Source: a virus
IMG/VR virus record: IMGVR_UViG_3300029454_000001
Span: 1-64,000 of that record
Length of the DNA: 64,000 nucleotides
Direction: 5' to 3' (one strand)
The position numbers and the translations under genes were made by a program. Positions within the stretch are counted from its first letter, which is position 1. Each line of letters opens with the position of its first letter. Positions 1,428-58,078 of the stretch are shown here, piece after piece. A model generated the notes under the pieces. It did no database searches. It saw only the letters and a program-made list of their open reading frames with translations, and was not told the origin of the DNA.

Positions 1428-2198
1428 TTAACTTGCTATTTCATTCCCAAGAAACTTATTGATAAAATACAGTTGTCCTTTTCCGGTAACTTTTGTGGTT
1501 CTCGTTACTCTGACACTTCCGTCTGGATTCTGAACACTGGATTCCTTAACTTCAAATAGCCCTTGTTCAATGTATCTCTGCATTGGCATATTGTAACTTG
1601 CACCAGACTTCATCAGATAACCATTGTCTCGCATCCACTGGAACAATCTCTTCTGTCCTGTCTGTACACCATTCTGGCAAATCAACTTTGCGAGGTCTCC
1701 AATAAGGATTGAAGTGTGGCTGGTTGATACCGCATCGGCAAAGATCGTTTTCGGCTTGTCTGCTTCAATTTTTAGTCTTTGCTTTTCGATAATCTTGTCT
1801 CTCTCTGCGATTTTCTTCTTTGCTACCAGAATTGCTTTCGCCATCAATTCTTCATCAGAAAGTGTTTCTTGTCCTAAAATGTAACCGCCATTCTTACGGA
1901 TGGATGGTATAACTTCATCAAACACCCATGTTTCAAACTTTTCTGCGGATGGTAGTTTACTCCTTACTATCAAACGGTAAATATCCCCTTCTGGTATTAC
2001 TTTCATGCACTGGATTCCACCTTTTGAAGGTATGTCCATTTCGGACACCCCTTTACAATGAGTACGAATTGCTTTTGCTGTTTCCACGTAACCAAGTGCT
2101 CTTGCTACATCATTTGCAACAAAATACGGTTTACCATCAATCTCTACCGTCCGAATATCTCCGAACTCTGGCGAATTAAAAATCTGTAATTCGTTCAT
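1428..2198 (-). CDS. Phage antirepressor, BRO-N domain plus KilAC-type C-terminal domain
   Basis: N-terminus FNSPEFGDIRTVEIDGKPYFVANDVARALGY..KLPSAEKFETWVFDEVIPSIRKNGGY is the BRO-N signature. The C-terminal half resembles KilAC/ANT domains. Confidence 0.85.
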   Translation of the reverse strand: MNELQIFNSPEFGDIRTVEIDGKPYFVANDVARALGYVETAKAIRTHCKGVSEMDIPSKGGIQCMKVIPEGDIYRLIVRSKLPSAEKFETWVFDEVIPSIRKNGGYILGQETLSDEELMAKAILVAKKKIAERDKIIEKQRLKIEADKPKTIFADAVSTSHTSILIGDLAKLICQNGVQTGQKRLFQWMRDNGYLMKSGASYNMPMQRYIEQGLFEVKESSVQNPDGSVRVTRTTKVTGKGQLYFINKFLGNEIAS

Positions 2199-2979: not shown

Positions 2980-3336
2980 ATGACATTAGCGGAAAGAATT
3001 CGGTTTGTTCGTGAAAAATACGGTGATAGCCAAACTAAATTTGCCGAAAAAATTAAGATTTCCAGATCTGCTGTAAGCAAGATTGAAAGTGGTGAAAATA
3101 CTCCTTCCAATCAGACTATTACTTTAATCTGTAAGGAGTATCACACAAACTATCTGTGGCTAACAGAAGAAAAAGGTGAACAGGAATCTGACAATAGTGA
3201 TGCGCAGGCTATTGTAGATTCAGTAATGAAGGGCGATAACGAATTTGCTAAAAGTGTTTTGGTAAAATTTGCGAAGCTCAGTGAAGATCACTGGAAACAA
3301 ATTGAAAACATTCTAAATGAATTGGAAAAGAATTAA
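2980..3336 (+). CDS. CI-like XRE-family HTH repressor (118 aa)
   Basis: Internal Met after RBS AGGAGGTGAGAAA. HTH signature QTKFAEKIKISRSAVSKIESGENTPSNQTITLICKEY. Divergent from the early operon. Confidence 0.85.
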   Translation: MTLAERIRFVREKYGDSQTKFAEKIKISRSAVSKIESGENTPSNQTITLICKEYHTNYLWLTEEKGEQESDNSDAQAIVDSVMKGDNEFAKSVLVKFAKLSEDHWKQIENILNELEKN

Positions 3337-3343
3337 AGAAAGG

Positions 3344-3371
3344 CCGGGGTTAATCCCCGGTCATTTCTTTT
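3344..3371 (+). terminator. Rho-independent terminator after the repressor gene
   Basis: CCGGGG-TTAAT-CCCCGG hairpin (3344-3360) followed by the T-rich run tcatttctttt. Confidence 0.6.
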
Positions 3372-3517
3372 ATATAAAGATATTCAAGAAGCTTATAAAC
3401 ACGTTTAAGCGTGTAAGGGTCTTTCACCTCTTCTAAAAGTTTTTTAATTTCCTCTTTGTAATTAATATCATCATTTTTCTTGTAATCCACGTAAATCCCT
3501 CCCAATATTCCAAACAT
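3350..3517 (-). CDS. Possible small ORF (55 aa from ATG, or about 46 aa from an internal GTG with a GGGAGGG RBS)
   Basis: My translation ..VDYKKNDDINYKEEIKKLLEEVKDPYTLKRVYKLLEYLYIKEMTGD. Below the ORF-track cutoff and overlaps the terminator hairpin. Confidence 0.3.
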   Translation of the reverse strand: MFGILGGIYVDYKKNDDINYKEEIKKLLEEVKDPYTLKRVYKLLEYLYIKEMTGD

Positions 3518-3535
3518 TTGTTCTTATTTATTAAA

Positions 3536-3892
3536 TTATACCATGTTTCCATAACTATATACTGGGACGGAATCATCTCCGCTTAAATCCTTTCTGGCAA
3601 GTTGCTTTTCCTCTATATTTTTACAGATTACGAGATTTTTTGTATAAATATTGTGATTTTCGCTTTTCCAAATCGTAATAATAATAGATAGAAATAAAGG
3701 GGCTGGATGCTTGTCTGCGAGGGATTTATAGCGTTCATGAACAACCTGTTTTACCTCTGCTTTTGCAGTTTCGATAGTTTTATTCCTCCCAAAGATAATA
3801 CTACGATCCGGGCGGAAGTAAACGTATTGAATCAAGAACGCCTGCACGAATATCAGTATAAACACAATTATGATTTTTTTATGTTTCTCCAT
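3536..3892 (-). CDS. Small membrane-anchored or secreted protein (118 aa), candidate target of the LytTR regulator
   Basis: N-terminal hydrophobic segment KKIIIVFILIFVQAFLIQYVYF. RBS AAAGGGGATGGATTC. Divergent from the LytTR gene. Confidence 0.6.
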   Translation of the reverse strand: MEKHKKIIIVFILIFVQAFLIQYVYFRPDRSIIFGRNKTIETAKAEVKQVVHERYKSLADKHPAPLFLSIIITIWKSENHNIYTKNLVICKNIEEKQLARKDLSGDDSVPVYSYGNMV

Positions 3893-3969
3893 GAATCCAT
3901 CCCCTTTACACTATCATCTTAATGTATTACAATAACATTGTATCAAAAAATATACAATCACACAGGAAA

Positions 3970-4000
3970 TGGCGAAATTAGCACCTCTGGTGGCGAATTT
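3970..4000 (-). promoter_or_regulatory. Candidate LytTR box: two 10-bp direct repeats phased 21 bp apart
   Basis: Plus strand TGGCGAAATT (3970-3979) and TGGCGAATTT (3991-4000). On the minus strand AAWTTCGCCA-N11-AAWTTCGCCA lies 27 nt upstream of a TACAAT -10 with a poor -35, facing gene 3536..3892. Confidence 0.35.
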
Positions 4001-4022
4001 TACGTGAAAAGAGATGATTTGA

Positions 4023-4724
4023 ATGAGAATTGCAATATGTGATGATAGCGAAATCCAGATTGATATATTTATGCATCGGATTAATAATTTTCTCAAACGA
4101 AATGGTGATATAAAAGCATTGATTACTCCGTATGATAAAGGGCAGCCGCTTATTGATGATGTGGCAGATGGCGAGTGGTATGATATTGTGGTTTTGGATA
4201 TCGTTTTGAAAGAAGAAAATGGAATTGAAGTCGCAAAGGAATTGAGATTAAATGGCTATAATGGAAATATTATTTTCTGGACAGCCCACAAAGAGTATGT
4301 TTTTGAAGCTCTTGATATACTCCCGGTACACTATATCATAAAAGGTTCTGAAAACGGCAGAATGTATAGTGCTTTCAATCATGCTCTGGAACATATCAGC
4401 AAAAGCACTCTTATGATAAAAGGAAAAGACTTTATTCATCGGGTGGAGTTTCAAAATATCGAATATATTGAGAGCCGAAACAAATACATCATTATCCACT
4501 GCACTTGCGGTATAGTTTATACGGAACGATGTAAACTATCCGATATTGAAGAATTACTGGATTCCAGATTCTTGAGATGTCACCAGAGCTACATAATAAA
4601 CATGGATGAGGTAAAAGAAATAAATACTTCGTTCCTTATGTTTTCTGGGAATACTGTGCCAATCAGAAGAAAAGACTTTGTGAAAATAAGAAACGAATTT
4701 GAAGAATATACAACATTTAAGTAG
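4023..4724 (+). CDS. Orphan response regulator, receiver domain plus LytTR DNA-binding domain (AgrA/LytR type)
   Basis: MRIAICDDSE..IVVLDIVL..IIFWTAHKEY is receiver-like. RVEFQNIEYIESRNKYIIIH..FLRCHQSYIINMDEV..IPIRRKD is LytTR-like. No histidine kinase in the window. Confidence 0.9.
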   Translation: MRIAICDDSEIQIDIFMHRINNFLKRNGDIKALITPYDKGQPLIDDVADGEWYDIVVLDIVLKEENGIEVAKELRLNGYNGNIIFWTAHKEYVFEALDILPVHYIIKGSENGRMYSAFNHALEHISKSTLMIKGKDFIHRVEFQNIEYIESRNKYIIIHCTCGIVYTERCKLSDIEELLDSRFLRCHQSYIINMDEVKEINTSFLMFSGNTVPIRRKDFVKIRNEFEEYTTFK

Positions 4725-4745
4725 CTCCCGGGAAAACCCCGGGAG
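4725..4745. terminator. Hairpin between convergent genes, putative bidirectional terminator
   Basis: CTCCCGGG-AAAAC-CCCGGGAG, an 8-bp GC-rich stem between the stops at 4724 and 4751. U-tracts are weak. Confidence 0.5.
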
Positions 4746-4750
4746 TGTTA

Positions 4751-5557
4751 TTATTTCAGTAATTCATTGACTTTTTTCTGCACTTCTGCGTAGTTGTAGC
4801 CAGCGGATTCCAGGCGGTCTCGTCTATCTTGTCCATTTCCCCATTCGCCGTTGATTACCTCTTTTGCGACCTGGGCTACACTTTTCTTTGCAGTCACGGA
4901 ATACACAGATTTTCCATTCCAATCAAAAACAGAATAACCGGCTTTGCAAGCCTTCTTTGCATTTTTGAATGACTTGTACGCCCCGATCTGGCTCTTAGAA
5001 TCCTTCCAGGTCTTGCGGACACGGTAATACTTGTCAACCTTTACTGTCGGCTTTGTGGTTGGAACTGTCACGGTTTCACTGGAAATAAGCTTCTTAAATC
5101 TATTCCAGTCTCCCTTTCCACGGATAATGGAAGGGCAATTCTTAGCGCACACATCGTAGTGCTGAACAACTCGGCTTGCCGGAATGCCGTATTTTTTCAT
5201 AAGCTGCTTACATACATCAACTGTATTTTGGAATGCCTTTTCGTAGTTGTAACCGGCATTCATGCACATTTCAATCCCGATAGAGTTGTGATTGTTTATA
5301 GTTCCAAAAAGCTTACTGCCGTAATTTACGCCAACGTGCCATGCTCCACGATTATACGGCAAAGCTTGGTATGCTGATTTATCATCAACGAATACGTGGG
5401 CTGAATAGCCATGAAAATTGCCGTTATGCTGTGCGGTGGCGTGTGCCTTGGCATCTGCTGTCTTGGCGGTATTATCCGTATTGTGGATGACAATATACAG
5501 AGGTGTCTGTCCGGCGTAGCTGTTGTTGTTGCTGATTAATGAGGTATTGATATTCAT
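4751..5557 (-). CDS. Endolysin: N-acetylmuramoyl-L-alanine amidase (Amidase_2/PGRP type), SPOR-like middle segment, C-terminal Cpl-7 (CW_7) motif
   Basis: PLYIVIHNTDN..AHVFVDD..GAWHVG is the amidase_2 pattern. YYRVRKTWKDSKSQIGAYKSFKNAKKACKAGY is SPOR-like. VINGEWGNGQDRRDRLESAGYNYAEVQKKVNELL is CW_7-like. Start chosen at the internal Met with RBS AAAGGAGAACATAC. The alternative upstream ATG at 5677 is discussed in findings. Confidence 0.85.
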   Translation of the reverse strand: MNINTSLISNNNSYAGQTPLYIVIHNTDNTAKTADAKAHATAQHNGNFHGYSAHVFVDDKSAYQALPYNRGAWHVGVNYGSKLFGTINNHNSIGIEMCMNAGYNYEKAFQNTVDVCKQLMKKYGIPASRVVQHYDVCAKNCPSIIRGKGDWNRFKKLISSETVTVPTTKPTVKVDKYYRVRKTWKDSKSQIGAYKSFKNAKKACKAGYSVFDWNGKSVYSVTAKKSVAQVAKEVINGEWGNGQDRRDRLESAGYNYAEVQKKVNELLK

Positions 5558-56284: not shown

Positions 56285-57997
56285 TTATAGTGCTAAAAGG
56301 TACTTATATTTGAAAAATACCATATCTTGTGTCTTAATGCAAGTTTTCCTACTAAATATCTTGTGTTGTTCTGAATGTAGAGTAAAAATCATATCGTCAG
56401 AACGGCGCAAGGGAAACCCCCATTTTTCAAGGCTTCCAGACCTCAATTGAAATGTCAGTGTTGCACATGTAACCGCCAACGGTTCAACGGTAATCTTCTC
56501 AAAAAGTTCATTAACAATCTGCCTGTTAATGTCTTTTTGAGTAACGCCTTTGAACTTTTTTAACTGCTCTTTAATAGCATTTAATTGTATTTCTACTGGT
56601 TCTGGACTTTTGGTGTTTTGTAGCTCTCGAATATGGCTCTCTGTCTGTTTTATCTGTTTTACATATTCTTTGTTTCTTGAAACAAATTCATCATCAGATA
56701 TTTTGCCATCCAGATTATATTCCAGTATTTTTTCACGCTTTTGTTTTAACAGGTCGATCTGTTTTTCAAGTCTCGTGATTTCGTTTATATTGTCTGGAAT
56801 GTTTTTAATTGAGGACTGTAAAATTTCAAAATATTCCTCCAAAATGCTGTCAATATTTTCAGAAGATTTATTAATCAATTCTGCAATTACTTCTTTTAGC
56901 TCTGATTCTGCCAGCCCGAACGAATTGCAAGAAGCTGCTCCATTTTTTATTTTATAGCTGCATACCCATCGAACATCTTCTTTTCCTCTGATGTAATGTT
57001 GCTTCATCCAGTATGGCGCTCCGTCATTTGCGCAGAAAAGTTTTCCGGTGAAAATATTTTCATTCTTAAAAGACGTTCTTCTCGATTTTATAGCTTCTCC
57101 TCGTTCTCTTAAATATGCATTTGCCTTTTCCCAAGTGGCCTCGTCAATGATCTGCGGCACTCTGGAGCCATCATCTTTAAACATTACCCATTCTGACTGC
57201 GGAAGAAATTCTTGTTTCTTGGTGAACATATCGACAACCTTTACTTTTCCTCCACAATAGTATCCTTTGTATTTTGGATTCCGAATAATATTTTTTATGA
57301 CATCCCGGTTGATTTTCCCACCTTTGAAACTTCTGTATCCCATATCCCAGAGTTTTTTTTCTATTCTTGGCGTAGATATTCCGGAAGCGTAATCTTGAAA
57401 AATCATTCGAACCATGTCCGCTTCTTCTGGAACCAGTTCGAGTTTTCCTTGATTGTTTGAGTATCCATACATTCTGTGCCCGAGAACAACACCATTTTTG
57501 ATTGACTGTGCGTGTCCAAATTTTACTCTTGAAGAAAGCTTGCGGATTTCGTCCTGCGCTACCCCAGCCATAATAGTAAGTCTGAACTCACTATCATCAT
57601 CAATAGTGTTAATTCCATCATTTTGGAACCACACGCATACGCCGTAAGATAACAATTCCCTGGTATATTGGATGCTGTCAAGAGTATTTCGCGCAAATCT
57701 TGAAATTTCTTTCGTAATAATCATGTCAATTTTTCCGAGCTTTGCATCTCTGAGCATTCTTTGAAATTCTTCTCTTTTATCCGCATGTATTCCAGAAATA
57801 CCATCATCAATGTAAGAACCAGCAAACTTCCATCTGTTGTTAGAATGTATCAGCTCTTCAAAATGTTCCTCCTGGTGCTTAATGGATGCTTGCTGTTCAA
57901 CTTTTTCAGTAGAAACCCTGGCATAATAAGCAACATTTAGTTCAATGTCGTAAATAGAGCAATTTCTTAATTTTTCTCTGACATAATAAATATTCAT
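56285..57997 (-). CDS. Large serine recombinase (integrase/transposase type, 570 aa)
   Basis: VAYYARVSTEKVEQ catalytic motif, DMIITKEISRFARN, recombinase domain, Cys-containing zinc-ribbon region, long coiled coil. Confidence 0.9.
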   Translation of the reverse strand: MNIYYVREKLRNCSIYDIELNVAYYARVSTEKVEQQASIKHQEEHFEELIHSNNRWKFAGSYIDDGISGIHADKREEFQRMLRDAKLGKIDMIITKEISRFARNTLDSIQYTRELLSYGVCVWFQNDGINTIDDDSEFRLTIMAGVAQDEIRKLSSRVKFGHAQSIKNGVVLGHRMYGYSNNQGKLELVPEEADMVRMIFQDYASGISTPRIEKKLWDMGYRSFKGGKINRDVIKNIIRNPKYKGYYCGGKVKVVDMFTKKQEFLPQSEWVMFKDDGSRVPQIIDEATWEKANAYLRERGEAIKSRRTSFKNENIFTGKLFCANDGAPYWMKQHYIRGKEDVRWVCSYKIKNGAASCNSFGLAESELKEVIAELINKSSENIDSILEEYFEILQSSIKNIPDNINEITRLEKQIDLLKQKREKILEYNLDGKISDDEFVSRNKEYVKQIKQTESHIRELQNTKSPEPVEIQLNAIKEQLKKFKGVTQKDINRQIVNELFEKITVEPLAVTCATLTFQLRSGSLEKWGFPLRRSDDMIFTLHSEQHKIFSRKTCIKTQDMVFFKYKYLLAL

Positions 57998-58078
57998 AGT
58001 GCATTTCTCCCTTAATAAACAGGGAGTGGAATCATATAAAGTATAACACCTCATATAACTCCACTCAATACATTTTCG

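What the first reader, a model, noticed from the sequence alone, without database searches (positions are those of the whole stretch)
3536..4724. Orphan LytTR response regulator next to the CI repressor, with a 21-bp-phased direct-repeat box facing a divergent membrane-protein gene
The regulator has an intact receiver (DD pair, VLDI Asp) and a LytTR domain, but there is no kinase in the window. In the 130-bp divergent intergenic region two 10-bp direct repeats (AAWTTCGCCA on the minus strand) start 21 bp apart. This is the spacing used by AgrA/LytR-type proteins (9-10-bp repeats with a 12-bp gap, established). They sit 27 nt upstream of a TACAAT -10 that has a poor -35, as expected for an activator-dependent promoter driving 3536..3892. 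Inference: the prophage reads a host (quorum-sensing or envelope) kinase to switch on a membrane protein. That protein could mediate exclusion, defence or lysis-lysogeny input. Some Clostridial phages carry agr genes, but a lone AgrA-like regulator with its own target is less described.
Basis: partly seen in the sequence, partly recalled or inferred. Interest (0 to 1): 0.6.

Follow-up and report, generated by a model that had tools for sequence, protein, structure and literature searches.

The report
Phage orphan response regulator and its promoter
A common temperate gut (Blautia-type) phage carries a kinase-less bacterial-style response regulator whose conserved DNA docking site sits in front of a small neighbouring operon, so the phage probably listens to a host kinase to switch those genes on.

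Summary
Gene 4023-4724 encodes an intact receiver plus LytTR regulator. The complete 78-kb phage has no histidine kinase. Two 10-bp repeats (TGGCGAAATT at 3970, TGGCGAATTT at 3991) start 21 bp apart. They are the only such pair in the genome.

Relatives whose regulators are only 47-78% identical keep the repeat pair and its spacing while the flanks diverge. In all 12 box instances examined, the box is followed by 24-25 nt and an extended -10 (TGnTAnnnT) with no -35, pointing at the membrane-protein gene. In the window this is TGATACAAT, 3945..3937. A Blautia chromosome shows the same layout beside its own LytTR two-component genes.

Three points are new:
- The box also lies at about +30 to +60 of the regulator's own strong promoter (TTTACA-17-TACAAT, 3905-3933). 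That promoter stands back-to-back with the activated one, so self-repression is likely.
- The target is a two-gene operon: the membrane protein plus a conserved 32-46-aa "MDYKKEII" protein.
- The tail of that small protein tracks the CI repressor type.

Binding, transcription starts, the kinase and the function of the operon remain untested. The scan has noted this phage family on other genomes before.

The parts
2980..3336 (+). CI-like HTH_3 (XRE) repressor, the neighbour of the module
   Evidence: Pfam HTH_3 8e-13; PHROG transcriptional repressor/regulator families
3342..3362 (.). Bidirectional intrinsic terminator that closes both the CI gene and the leftward operon
   Evidence: Terminator-like site on both strands
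3350..3490 (-). Small ORF, 46 aa from a GTG start behind GGGAGGG (MDYKK...KRVYKLLEYLYIKE); second gene of the leftward operon
   Evidence: Sequence and reading frame. The MDYKKEII family follows the membrane gene in 82/83, 58/58, 21/24 and 64/81 related loci. More than 600 protein clusters, all named hypothetical
3535..3543 (-). TGGTATAAT extended -10 overlapping the stop codon of the membrane gene; likely own promoter of the small ORF
   Evidence: Read from the sequence. Conserved as TG(G/A)TATAAT, with TTGCCA 17 nt upstream, in lineages B, C and regulator-less relatives
3536..3892 (-). 118-aa protein with an N-terminal membrane helix and a conserved C-terminal motif (NHNIY...QLARKDLSGDDSVP.Y.Y.NM)
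   Evidence: ORF. Homologues only in gut phages and Blautia prophages. Only 7 representatives among 1.8 billion proteins. AlphaFold2 model confident only for helix 2-26. Alignment A3
3905..3933 (+). Predicted regulator promoter: TTTACA, 17 nt, TACAAT
   Evidence: Best promoter-like site in 3300-4800, 10 of 12 matches. The -35 and -10 are conserved in lineages A, B and C
3937..3945 (-). Predicted regulator-dependent promoter of the leftward operon: extended -10 TGATACAAT with no -35
   Evidence: Fixed 24-25 nt from the box to TGn in all 12 box instances examined
3970..4000 (.). LytTR-type box: two 10-bp direct repeats with an 11-bp spacer (21-bp phase)
4023..4724 (+). Kinase-less receiver + LytTR response regulator
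   Evidence: Pfam; alignment A1; phrog_8810, full length, unknown function
4724..4746 (+). Terminator of the regulator gene

Best explanation
A temperate Blautia-type gut phage carries a self-contained regulatory cassette: a kinase-less response regulator, one LytTR box, and two back-to-back promoters.

The regulator is made from a good sigma-A promoter (3905-3933). When phosphorylated on Asp59 it should dimerise on the two 21-bp-phased repeats. The phosphate donor would be a host AgrC/LytS-type histidine kinase, or possibly a small-molecule donor. From about -40 to -70 the bound regulator recruits RNA polymerase to a -35-less extended -10 promoter (3945..3937). That promoter transcribes leftwards through the 118-aa membrane-anchored protein and the 46-aa MDYKK protein, ending at the terminator shared with the CI gene.

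The same box lies at about +30 to +60 of the regulator's own transcript, and the two -10 elements are only 3 bp apart. Activation of the leftward promoter should therefore shut the regulator's promoter.

Shown here: the sequence elements, their conservation and their geometry. Inferred: binding, phosphorylation by a host kinase, the direction of regulation, and what the operon does.
For: - Receiver and LytTR domains are intact and the phospho-acceptor set is conserved.
- No kinase exists in the complete 78-kb genome.
- The box is unique in the genome and unlikely by chance.
- The box and its 21-bp phase persist in lineages A, A3 and C (47-50% regulator identity) while the spacer and flanks diverge. 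Lineage B keeps the promoter-proximal half-site.
- In lineage C, cargo genes separate the two genes. The regulator leader and the membrane gene then each carry their own 21-bp-phased box.
- All 12 instances show box, 24-25 nt, then TGnTAnnnT pointing at the membrane gene.
- A Blautia glucerasea chromosome has the same box and extended -10 layout directly after its own LytTR regulator-kinase pair, and a second such locus.
- Two Blautia genomes each hold 14-16 LytTR proteins and about 20 HATPase_c_5 kinases. Several kinases have no adjacent regulator.
- The regulator promoter is the best promoter-like site in the region and is conserved.
- The membrane gene type co-varies with the regulator lineage (adjusted mutual information 0.87).
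Against: - There is no transcript, binding or phosphorylation data.
- Lineage B has only one good half-site.
- Regulator-less prophages keep a box-like element plus an extended -10 in front of the operon. A host regulator could therefore serve such promoters.
- The 12 instances are not fully independent; there are roughly 7-8 distinct sequence contexts.
- The site matrix was built partly from the sites it then scored.
- The small ORF has its own strong promoter, so its dependence on the regulator is only partial.
- The membrane topology is ambiguous, with positive charges on both sides of the helix.
Confidence: 0.6

Rival explanations
1. The box is served mainly by a host LytTR regulator. The phage regulator acts as a decoy or phosphate sink, or as a competitor for the same sites, which tunes a host quorum or envelope circuit rather than running its own.
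For: Blautia chromosomes carry boxes of the same consensus and the same extended -10 geometry beside their own two-component genes. Regulator-less prophages L352-L354 keep a box-like promoter in front of the operon.
Against: Box sequence tracks the phage regulator lineage: TGGCGAA in A and B, TG(T/A)CAAA in C. The regulator gene and box stay together through rearrangements. The phage regulator is only 24-31% identical to the Blautia regulators examined.
Confidence: 0.12
2. The repeats are only a negative autoregulatory operator in the regulator's leader. The membrane-protein operon is not controlled by them.
For: The box lies downstream of the regulator's predicted promoter in every lineage, at a fixed 32-34 nt from the start codon. 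It stays with the regulator gene when the membrane gene is moved away.
Against: In lineage C the displaced membrane gene has its own 21-bp-phased box at the same 27-28 nt from a perfect TATAAT. A -35-less extended -10 at a fixed distance in 12 of 12 instances is not needed for a simple roadblock. A regulator whose only target is itself would have no output.
Confidence: 0.1
3. The pair is an LRS-like module (as in HdrRM/BrsRM). The membrane protein would be the signal-sensing inhibitor or partner of the LytTR regulator, and no kinase would be involved.
For: A LytTR regulator and a small membrane protein are neighbours and co-vary. LRS systems consist of a LytTR regulator plus a transmembrane inhibitor with direct repeats (PMC6193735).
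Against: The regulator has a full receiver with conserved phospho-acceptor residues. The genes are divergent and not in one operon. The box lies downstream of the regulator's promoter, not upstream of its -35. The membrane gene is truncated in some relatives while the rest persists.
Confidence: 0.05

Closest known systems
AgrA / ComE / PlnC-type LytTR response regulators and their direct-repeat promoters
   Same: Receiver plus LytTR architecture. Paired 9-10-bp direct repeats with a 21-bp phase, placed about -40 to -70 before a promoter lacking a -35. Control of a divergent promoter pair, as at agr P2/P3 (established knowledge of the family).
   Different: No cognate kinase, peptide precursor or processing genes anywhere in the phage. 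Scores are far below the NCBIfam AgrA, LytR and BtsR cut-offs. A single box appears to serve two back-to-back promoters with opposite predicted outcomes, whereas those systems autoactivate. The gene is carried by a phage.
[quoted passage not shown]
   Same: A phage-encoded sensory transcription factor sits beside the master repressor. It activates a neighbouring, divergently transcribed gene for a small protein (abstract read). Here the small ORF lies directly beside CI and its variable tail tracks the CI type.
   Different: Those modules are in linear plasmid-like phages of Gram-negative bacteria and use one-component factors. Here the factor is a two-component response regulator in an integrase-bearing Firmicute phage. 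The small ORF is the second gene and has its own promoter. No effect on the repressor is shown.
LytTR Regulatory Systems (HdrRM, BrsRM; PMC6193735)
   Same: A LytTR regulator paired with a small membrane protein and direct-repeat sites.
   Different: LRS regulators lack a receiver, are co-transcribed with their inhibitor, and carry repeats just upstream of the -35 for positive feedback. None of these three features holds here.
Phage-borne agr genes and LytTR proteins noted in the literature (phiCDHM1 agrB/C/D; LytTR proteins of Pseudomonas phages Lu11, PMG1, D3; PMC3901668)
   Same: Phages carry pieces of LytTR or agr signalling and are proposed to 'listen in'.
   Different: phiCDHM1 carries the kinase and peptide genes but no regulator, which is the mirror image of this case. 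The Pseudomonas phage LytTR proteins were only listed, with no target site or target gene given.
Small membrane-anchored superinfection-exclusion proteins in the lysogeny region of Gram-positive temperate phages (for example lactococcal Sie2009, Streptococcus thermophilus Ltp; from my own knowledge)
   Same: Small N-terminally anchored protein encoded next to the repressor.
   Different: There is no sequence or structural similarity. Those genes are expressed constitutively from the prophage, whereas here expression would be signal-dependent.

Membership tests
LytR/AlgR (LytTR) family two-component response regulators | N-terminal receiver domain with the acidic pocket, phospho-acceptor Asp, and conserved Thr and Lys | tested here: met
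   Pfam Response_reg 1.3e-10. D7, T87 and K107 invariant, D8 and D59 at least 90% conserved among 18 homologues
LytR/AlgR (LytTR) family two-component response regulators | C-terminal LytTR DNA-binding domain | tested here: met
   Pfam LytTR 2e-17, 63.6 bits against a cut-off of 22.6
LytR/AlgR (LytTR) family two-component response regulators | Cognate histidine kinase encoded with the regulator | tested here: not met
   No HATPase_c or HATPase_c_5 match in the complete 78,343-bp phage
LytR/AlgR (LytTR) family two-component response regulators | Target sites are paired 9-10-bp direct repeats about 21 bp apart, upstream of a weak promoter | tested here: met
   Repeats at 3970 and 3991. Conserved phase in relatives. 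Fixed distance to a -35-less extended -10. Actual binding was not testable
agr quorum-sensing system (AgrA equivalog) | Sequence-level equivalence to AgrA | tested here: not met
   NCBIfam quorum_RR_AgrA 44.7 bits against a cut-off of 400; LytR 62.3 against 375; BtsR 51 against 246
agr quorum-sensing system (AgrA equivalog) | agrB, agrD and agrC genes present | tested here: not met
   No kinase in the phage. The neighbours of the regulator are the membrane gene and the endolysin
LytTR Regulatory Systems (HdrRM/BrsRM type) | LytTR regulator without a receiver domain | tested here: not met
   A full receiver is present
LytTR Regulatory Systems (HdrRM/BrsRM type) | Regulator and membrane inhibitor in one operon, with direct repeats just upstream of the operon's -35 (positive feedback) | tested here: not met
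   The genes are divergent. The box lies downstream of the regulator's predicted promoter. Definition taken from PMC6193735
Phage transcription factor - small ORF induction modules | Transcription factor beside the repressor that activates a neighbouring small-protein gene | tested here: inconclusive
   The layout fits, but the small ORF is the second gene and has its own promoter
Phage transcription factor - small ORF induction modules | [quoted passage not shown] | not testable with these tools
   Only indirect evidence: the small-ORF tail type maps almost one-to-one onto the CI type (adjusted mutual information 0.90). Adjacency alone can produce this

The most novel reading that the evidence does not exclude
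The cassette is a phosphorylation-driven lysis-lysogeny input. A host kinase signal (quorum peptide or envelope stress) phosphorylates the phage regulator. The regulator then boosts transcription of the repressor-type-specific MDYKK small protein, which acts on the adjacent CI repressor. This would be a Gram-positive, two-component version of the transcription factor - small ORF induction modules. The membrane protein would be a co-expressed exclusion or signalling factor.
Probability: 0.18. Interest if true: 0.8.

Novelty: new variant of a known kind. Interest (0 to 1): 0.55.

Why it matters
Phages that read bacterial signals are known mainly from one-component receptors (VqmA, LuxR types) and the arbitrium peptide system. 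This case is a very common family of human-gut phages (hundreds of contigs of about 45 and 80 kb) that carry only the response-regulator half of a two-component system. They also carry a well-defined, conserved target promoter next to the immunity region. The system is therefore directly testable: one protein, one 31-bp site, two promoters and a two-gene output. It could show how prophages in the gut tap host kinase signalling. The fixed layout (box, 25 nt, TGnTAnnnT) also gives a search pattern for LytTR regulons in Lachnospiraceae.

Tried and rejected
- Structure of the membrane protein: the AlphaFold2 model had mean pLDDT 51.5 and only the N-terminal helix was confident. I ran no fold search because the matches would be meaningless.
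- Distant relatives of the membrane protein: only 7 representatives among 1.8 billion proteins. There are no Pfam, PHROG, NCBIfam or PADLOC families for it or for the small ORF; the single Cas12i hit at E=0.006 is noise.
- Box in distant regulator homologues (37% identity or less, Oscillospiraceae and others): not found upstream of their genes. The motif is specific to the clade at 47% identity and above.
- Other boxes in the phage: none.
- Shared operator motifs between the CI/Cro region and the regulator's intergenic region: none.
- Idea that the small protein mimics the C-terminal tail of its cognate CI: cognate pairs scored no better than non-cognate pairs. Rejected.
- Structured RNA in the conserved leader of the small ORF: folding z-score -1.14 and no Rfam match. 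Not supported.
- Conserved small ORF in the leftward transcript predicted from the lineage C regulator leader: none.

Full report
**What the window is.** The window is the first 64 kb of a complete 78,343-bp virus record with direct terminal repeats.
- Almost all genes run on the minus strand.
- The CI-like HTH_3 repressor (2980-3336) and the regulator (4023-4724) are among the very few real plus-strand genes.
- The genome has a Bro-N/ANT antirepressor at 1428..2198 and a large serine recombinase at about 56.3-58.1 kb. There is no tyrosine integrase. The phage is therefore temperate.
- Homologues of the membrane protein and the regulator come from human-gut metagenomes and from Blautia faecis and Blautia obeum records. 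The host is most likely Blautia.

**The observation.**
- The 233-aa product of 4023-4724 has Response_reg and LytTR domains.
- In an alignment of 18 homologues spanning 32-79% identity, D7, T87 and K107 are invariant, and D8 and the phospho-acceptor D59 are at least 90% conserved. The receiver is therefore under selection to be phosphorylated.
- One homologue (P0045) has Glu in place of D59, a natural phosphomimetic.
- No HATPase_c or HATPase_c_5 domain exists anywhere in the phage.
- The repeats TGGCGAATTT and TGGCGAAATT (starts 3991 and 3970) are 21 bp apart.
- Shuffles give such a pair in 0.4-1.1% of cases.
- A paired-site scan finds nothing comparable elsewhere in the 78 kb: 26.6 bits against 14.7 for the next best.

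**Relatives.** I collected 248 related loci.
- Lineage A: 95-100% regulator identity (L002-L081), plus 78% (L082-L084).
- Lineage B: 62% identity, from about 45-kb phages and Blautia obeum prophages.
- Lineage B': about 70% identical to B.
- Lineage C: 47-50% identity, from about 75-80-kb phages.

In every lineage the regulator lies in the lysogeny region beside a CI-like gene. PHROGs already holds a full-length family for it (phrog_8810, unknown function).

**Conservation of the box.**
- In lineage A the box is invariant in 16 of 17 intergenic variants.
- The most divergent variant (L070) has a rewritten spacer and flanks, yet it keeps TGGCAAAATC-N11-TGGCGAAATT.
- Lineage C has TGTCAAAA(T/A)C-N11-TG(A/G)CAAA(A/T)T at the same place.
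- Lineage B keeps one perfect half-site (TGGCGAAAAY). The other overlaps the ribosome-binding site and is degenerate.
- Regulators at 37% identity or less do not have this motif.

**Two promoters.**
- The plus strand carries TTTACA-17-TACAAT (3905-3933). It is the best promoter-like site in the region and is conserved in all lineages.
- The box therefore lies at about +30 to +60 of the regulator's own transcript, 32-34 nt before its start codon.
- Read towards the membrane gene, every box instance examined is followed by 24-25 nt and then TGnTAnnnT, with no -35.
- The instances are window TGATACAAT; L070 TGCTATAAT; B TGTTATAGT; B2 and B3 TGTTATTTT; C TGCTATAAT; and C2 TGCTATTAT, whose box lacks the C at position 4 of both half-sites and was picked out by eye. 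The boxes in the lineage C regulator leaders show TGGTATTAT and TGATAGTAT.
- By a rough base-composition estimate of my own, that nine-base pattern at one of two offsets is expected in about 0.4% of cases. It recurs in about 7-8 distinct sequence contexts.
- The geometry puts the box at about -40 to -70, the classical position for LytTR activators (established family knowledge).
- The two -10 elements are 2-3 bp apart in lineages A and B and 16 bp apart in C. The promoters are therefore back-to-back and overlapping. Occupancy of one should exclude the other.

**Lineage C as a natural experiment.**
- Plus-strand cargo genes (secreted or Big_2 proteins) separate the membrane gene from the regulator by 1.4-2.5 kb.
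- The regulator leader keeps its box.
- In about half the loci within reach of the 3-kb flanks, the displaced membrane gene has its own different 21-bp-phased box (GTGCAAAATC-N11-CTGCAAAAAT), 28 nt from a perfect TATAAT.
- This shows that the membrane operon is a target in its own right and that the regulator gene keeps a site in its own leader.

**Host comparison.**
- A degenerate box pattern found 10 places in two Blautia genomes, against 2 for the reversed control.
- In Blautia glucerasea one box (AATTTTGCCA-N11-GAATTTGCCA, then 28 nt, then TGGTATTTT) lies directly after a LytTR regulator-kinase pair and before a secreted-protein gene.
- A second box lies beside another LytTR regulator with the same 28-nt spacing to TGATATAAT.
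- The architecture is therefore a real promoter class of the presumed host genus.
- These genomes hold 14-16 LytTR proteins and about 20 HATPase_c_5 kinases each, and several kinases have no adjacent regulator. Kinase candidates abound but none can be assigned.

**The output.**
- The 118-aa protein has one confident N-terminal helix.
- Its middle part is variable and its C-terminal motif is conserved.
- It belongs to a tiny phage-restricted family.
- It is followed by a 46-aa ORF (GTG at 3490, behind GGGAGGG), and then by the terminator shared with CI.
- This MDYKKEII protein follows the membrane gene in nearly all related loci and belongs to a large family in which every member is annotated as hypothetical.
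- It has its own promoter inside the 3' end of the membrane gene: TGGTATAAT at 3543..3535, with TTGCCA 17 nt upstream in B and C. It also has a leader conserved at nucleotide level.
- Across 182 loci its variable tail maps almost one-to-one onto the CI type (adjusted mutual information 0.90) and hardly tracks the regulator lineage (0.24). The membrane gene tracks the regulator (0.87).
- The region therefore consists of two exchangeable units joined at the conserved block: CI with the small ORF, and the membrane gene with the box and the regulator.
- Prophages without the regulator (L352-L354) keep the small ORF and a box-like extended -10 promoter, sometimes with a truncated membrane gene.

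**Interpretation.**
- Best reading (0.6): a host-phosphorylated phage regulator activates the leftward operon and simultaneously shuts its own promoter.
- What the operon does is unknown. Signal-dependent exclusion by the membrane protein and an input to CI through the small protein are both open.
- The lysis-lysogeny reading, analogous to the transcription factor - small ORF modules of Silpe et al., is the most novel one. I put it at about 0.18.
- The system is not an agr system and not an LRS.

**Literature and earlier notes.**
- Published work mentions phage LytTR proteins only in passing (PMC3901668, PMC11945551).
- The scan has noted this family repeatedly on other genomes. This is therefore not a first sighting within the scan.

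Noticed in passing
window 3350-3545 (minus strand); L184, L250, L306, L353: The 32-46-aa MDYKKEII ORF has its own promoter (TTGCCA-17-TGGTATAAT) inside the 3' end of the membrane gene. Its leader of about 85 nt is conserved at nucleotide level across lineages whose other genes are barely alignable. It looks like a recombination linker between two exchangeable cassettes. The tail of the small protein maps almost one-to-one onto the CI type (adjusted mutual information 0.90).
   Followed up: partly
L184 about 2740-2925; same region in L171 and L089: In lineage C the box in the regulator leader keeps a leftward extended -10, although no gene lies in that direction. The predicted transcript of about 170 nt would end at a bidirectional terminator and contains a conserved CGGGAGGATGTGTG. 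It has no conserved ORF and no Rfam match. It could be a relic, a small RNA or an interference promoter.
   Followed up: partly
L345 4473-4540 and L346 2769-2850 (Blautia glucerasea chromosome): Host LytTR two-component loci carry boxes of the same consensus with the same 28-nt spacing to an extended -10. In L346 two boxes face each other 14 nt apart.
   Followed up: partly
L352 and L354, about 2825-2870: Regulator-less prophages keep the small ORF and the box-like promoter, but the membrane gene is cut to a few codons (MKKKCFFL, then a stop). The membrane protein is therefore dispensable while the small ORF is retained.
   Followed up: partly
lineage C loci, for example L178 1295-1325, inside the membrane gene: A second 21-bp-phased pair (TTGCGAATAT-N11-TTGCAAATTT) lies inside the coding sequence of the lineage C membrane gene, about 275 nt from the promoter box. 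It may be chance or an internal site.
   Followed up: no
protein P0045 (47% identical regulator): This homologue has Glu where the phospho-acceptor Asp59 stands (VMETV in place of VLDI). That would make it a natural phosphomimetic, possibly a constitutively active variant.
   Followed up: no
window 3695-3713 and 3890-3908: A 19-nt stretch inside the membrane gene is 84% complementary to that gene's own ribosome-binding site and start codon. It could mask translation initiation in the mRNA.
   Followed up: no
window 56285-58054 (minus strand): The only recombinase of the phage is a large serine recombinase about 52 kb away from the CI region. Close relatives carry tyrosine integrases next to the endolysin instead.
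   Followed up: no
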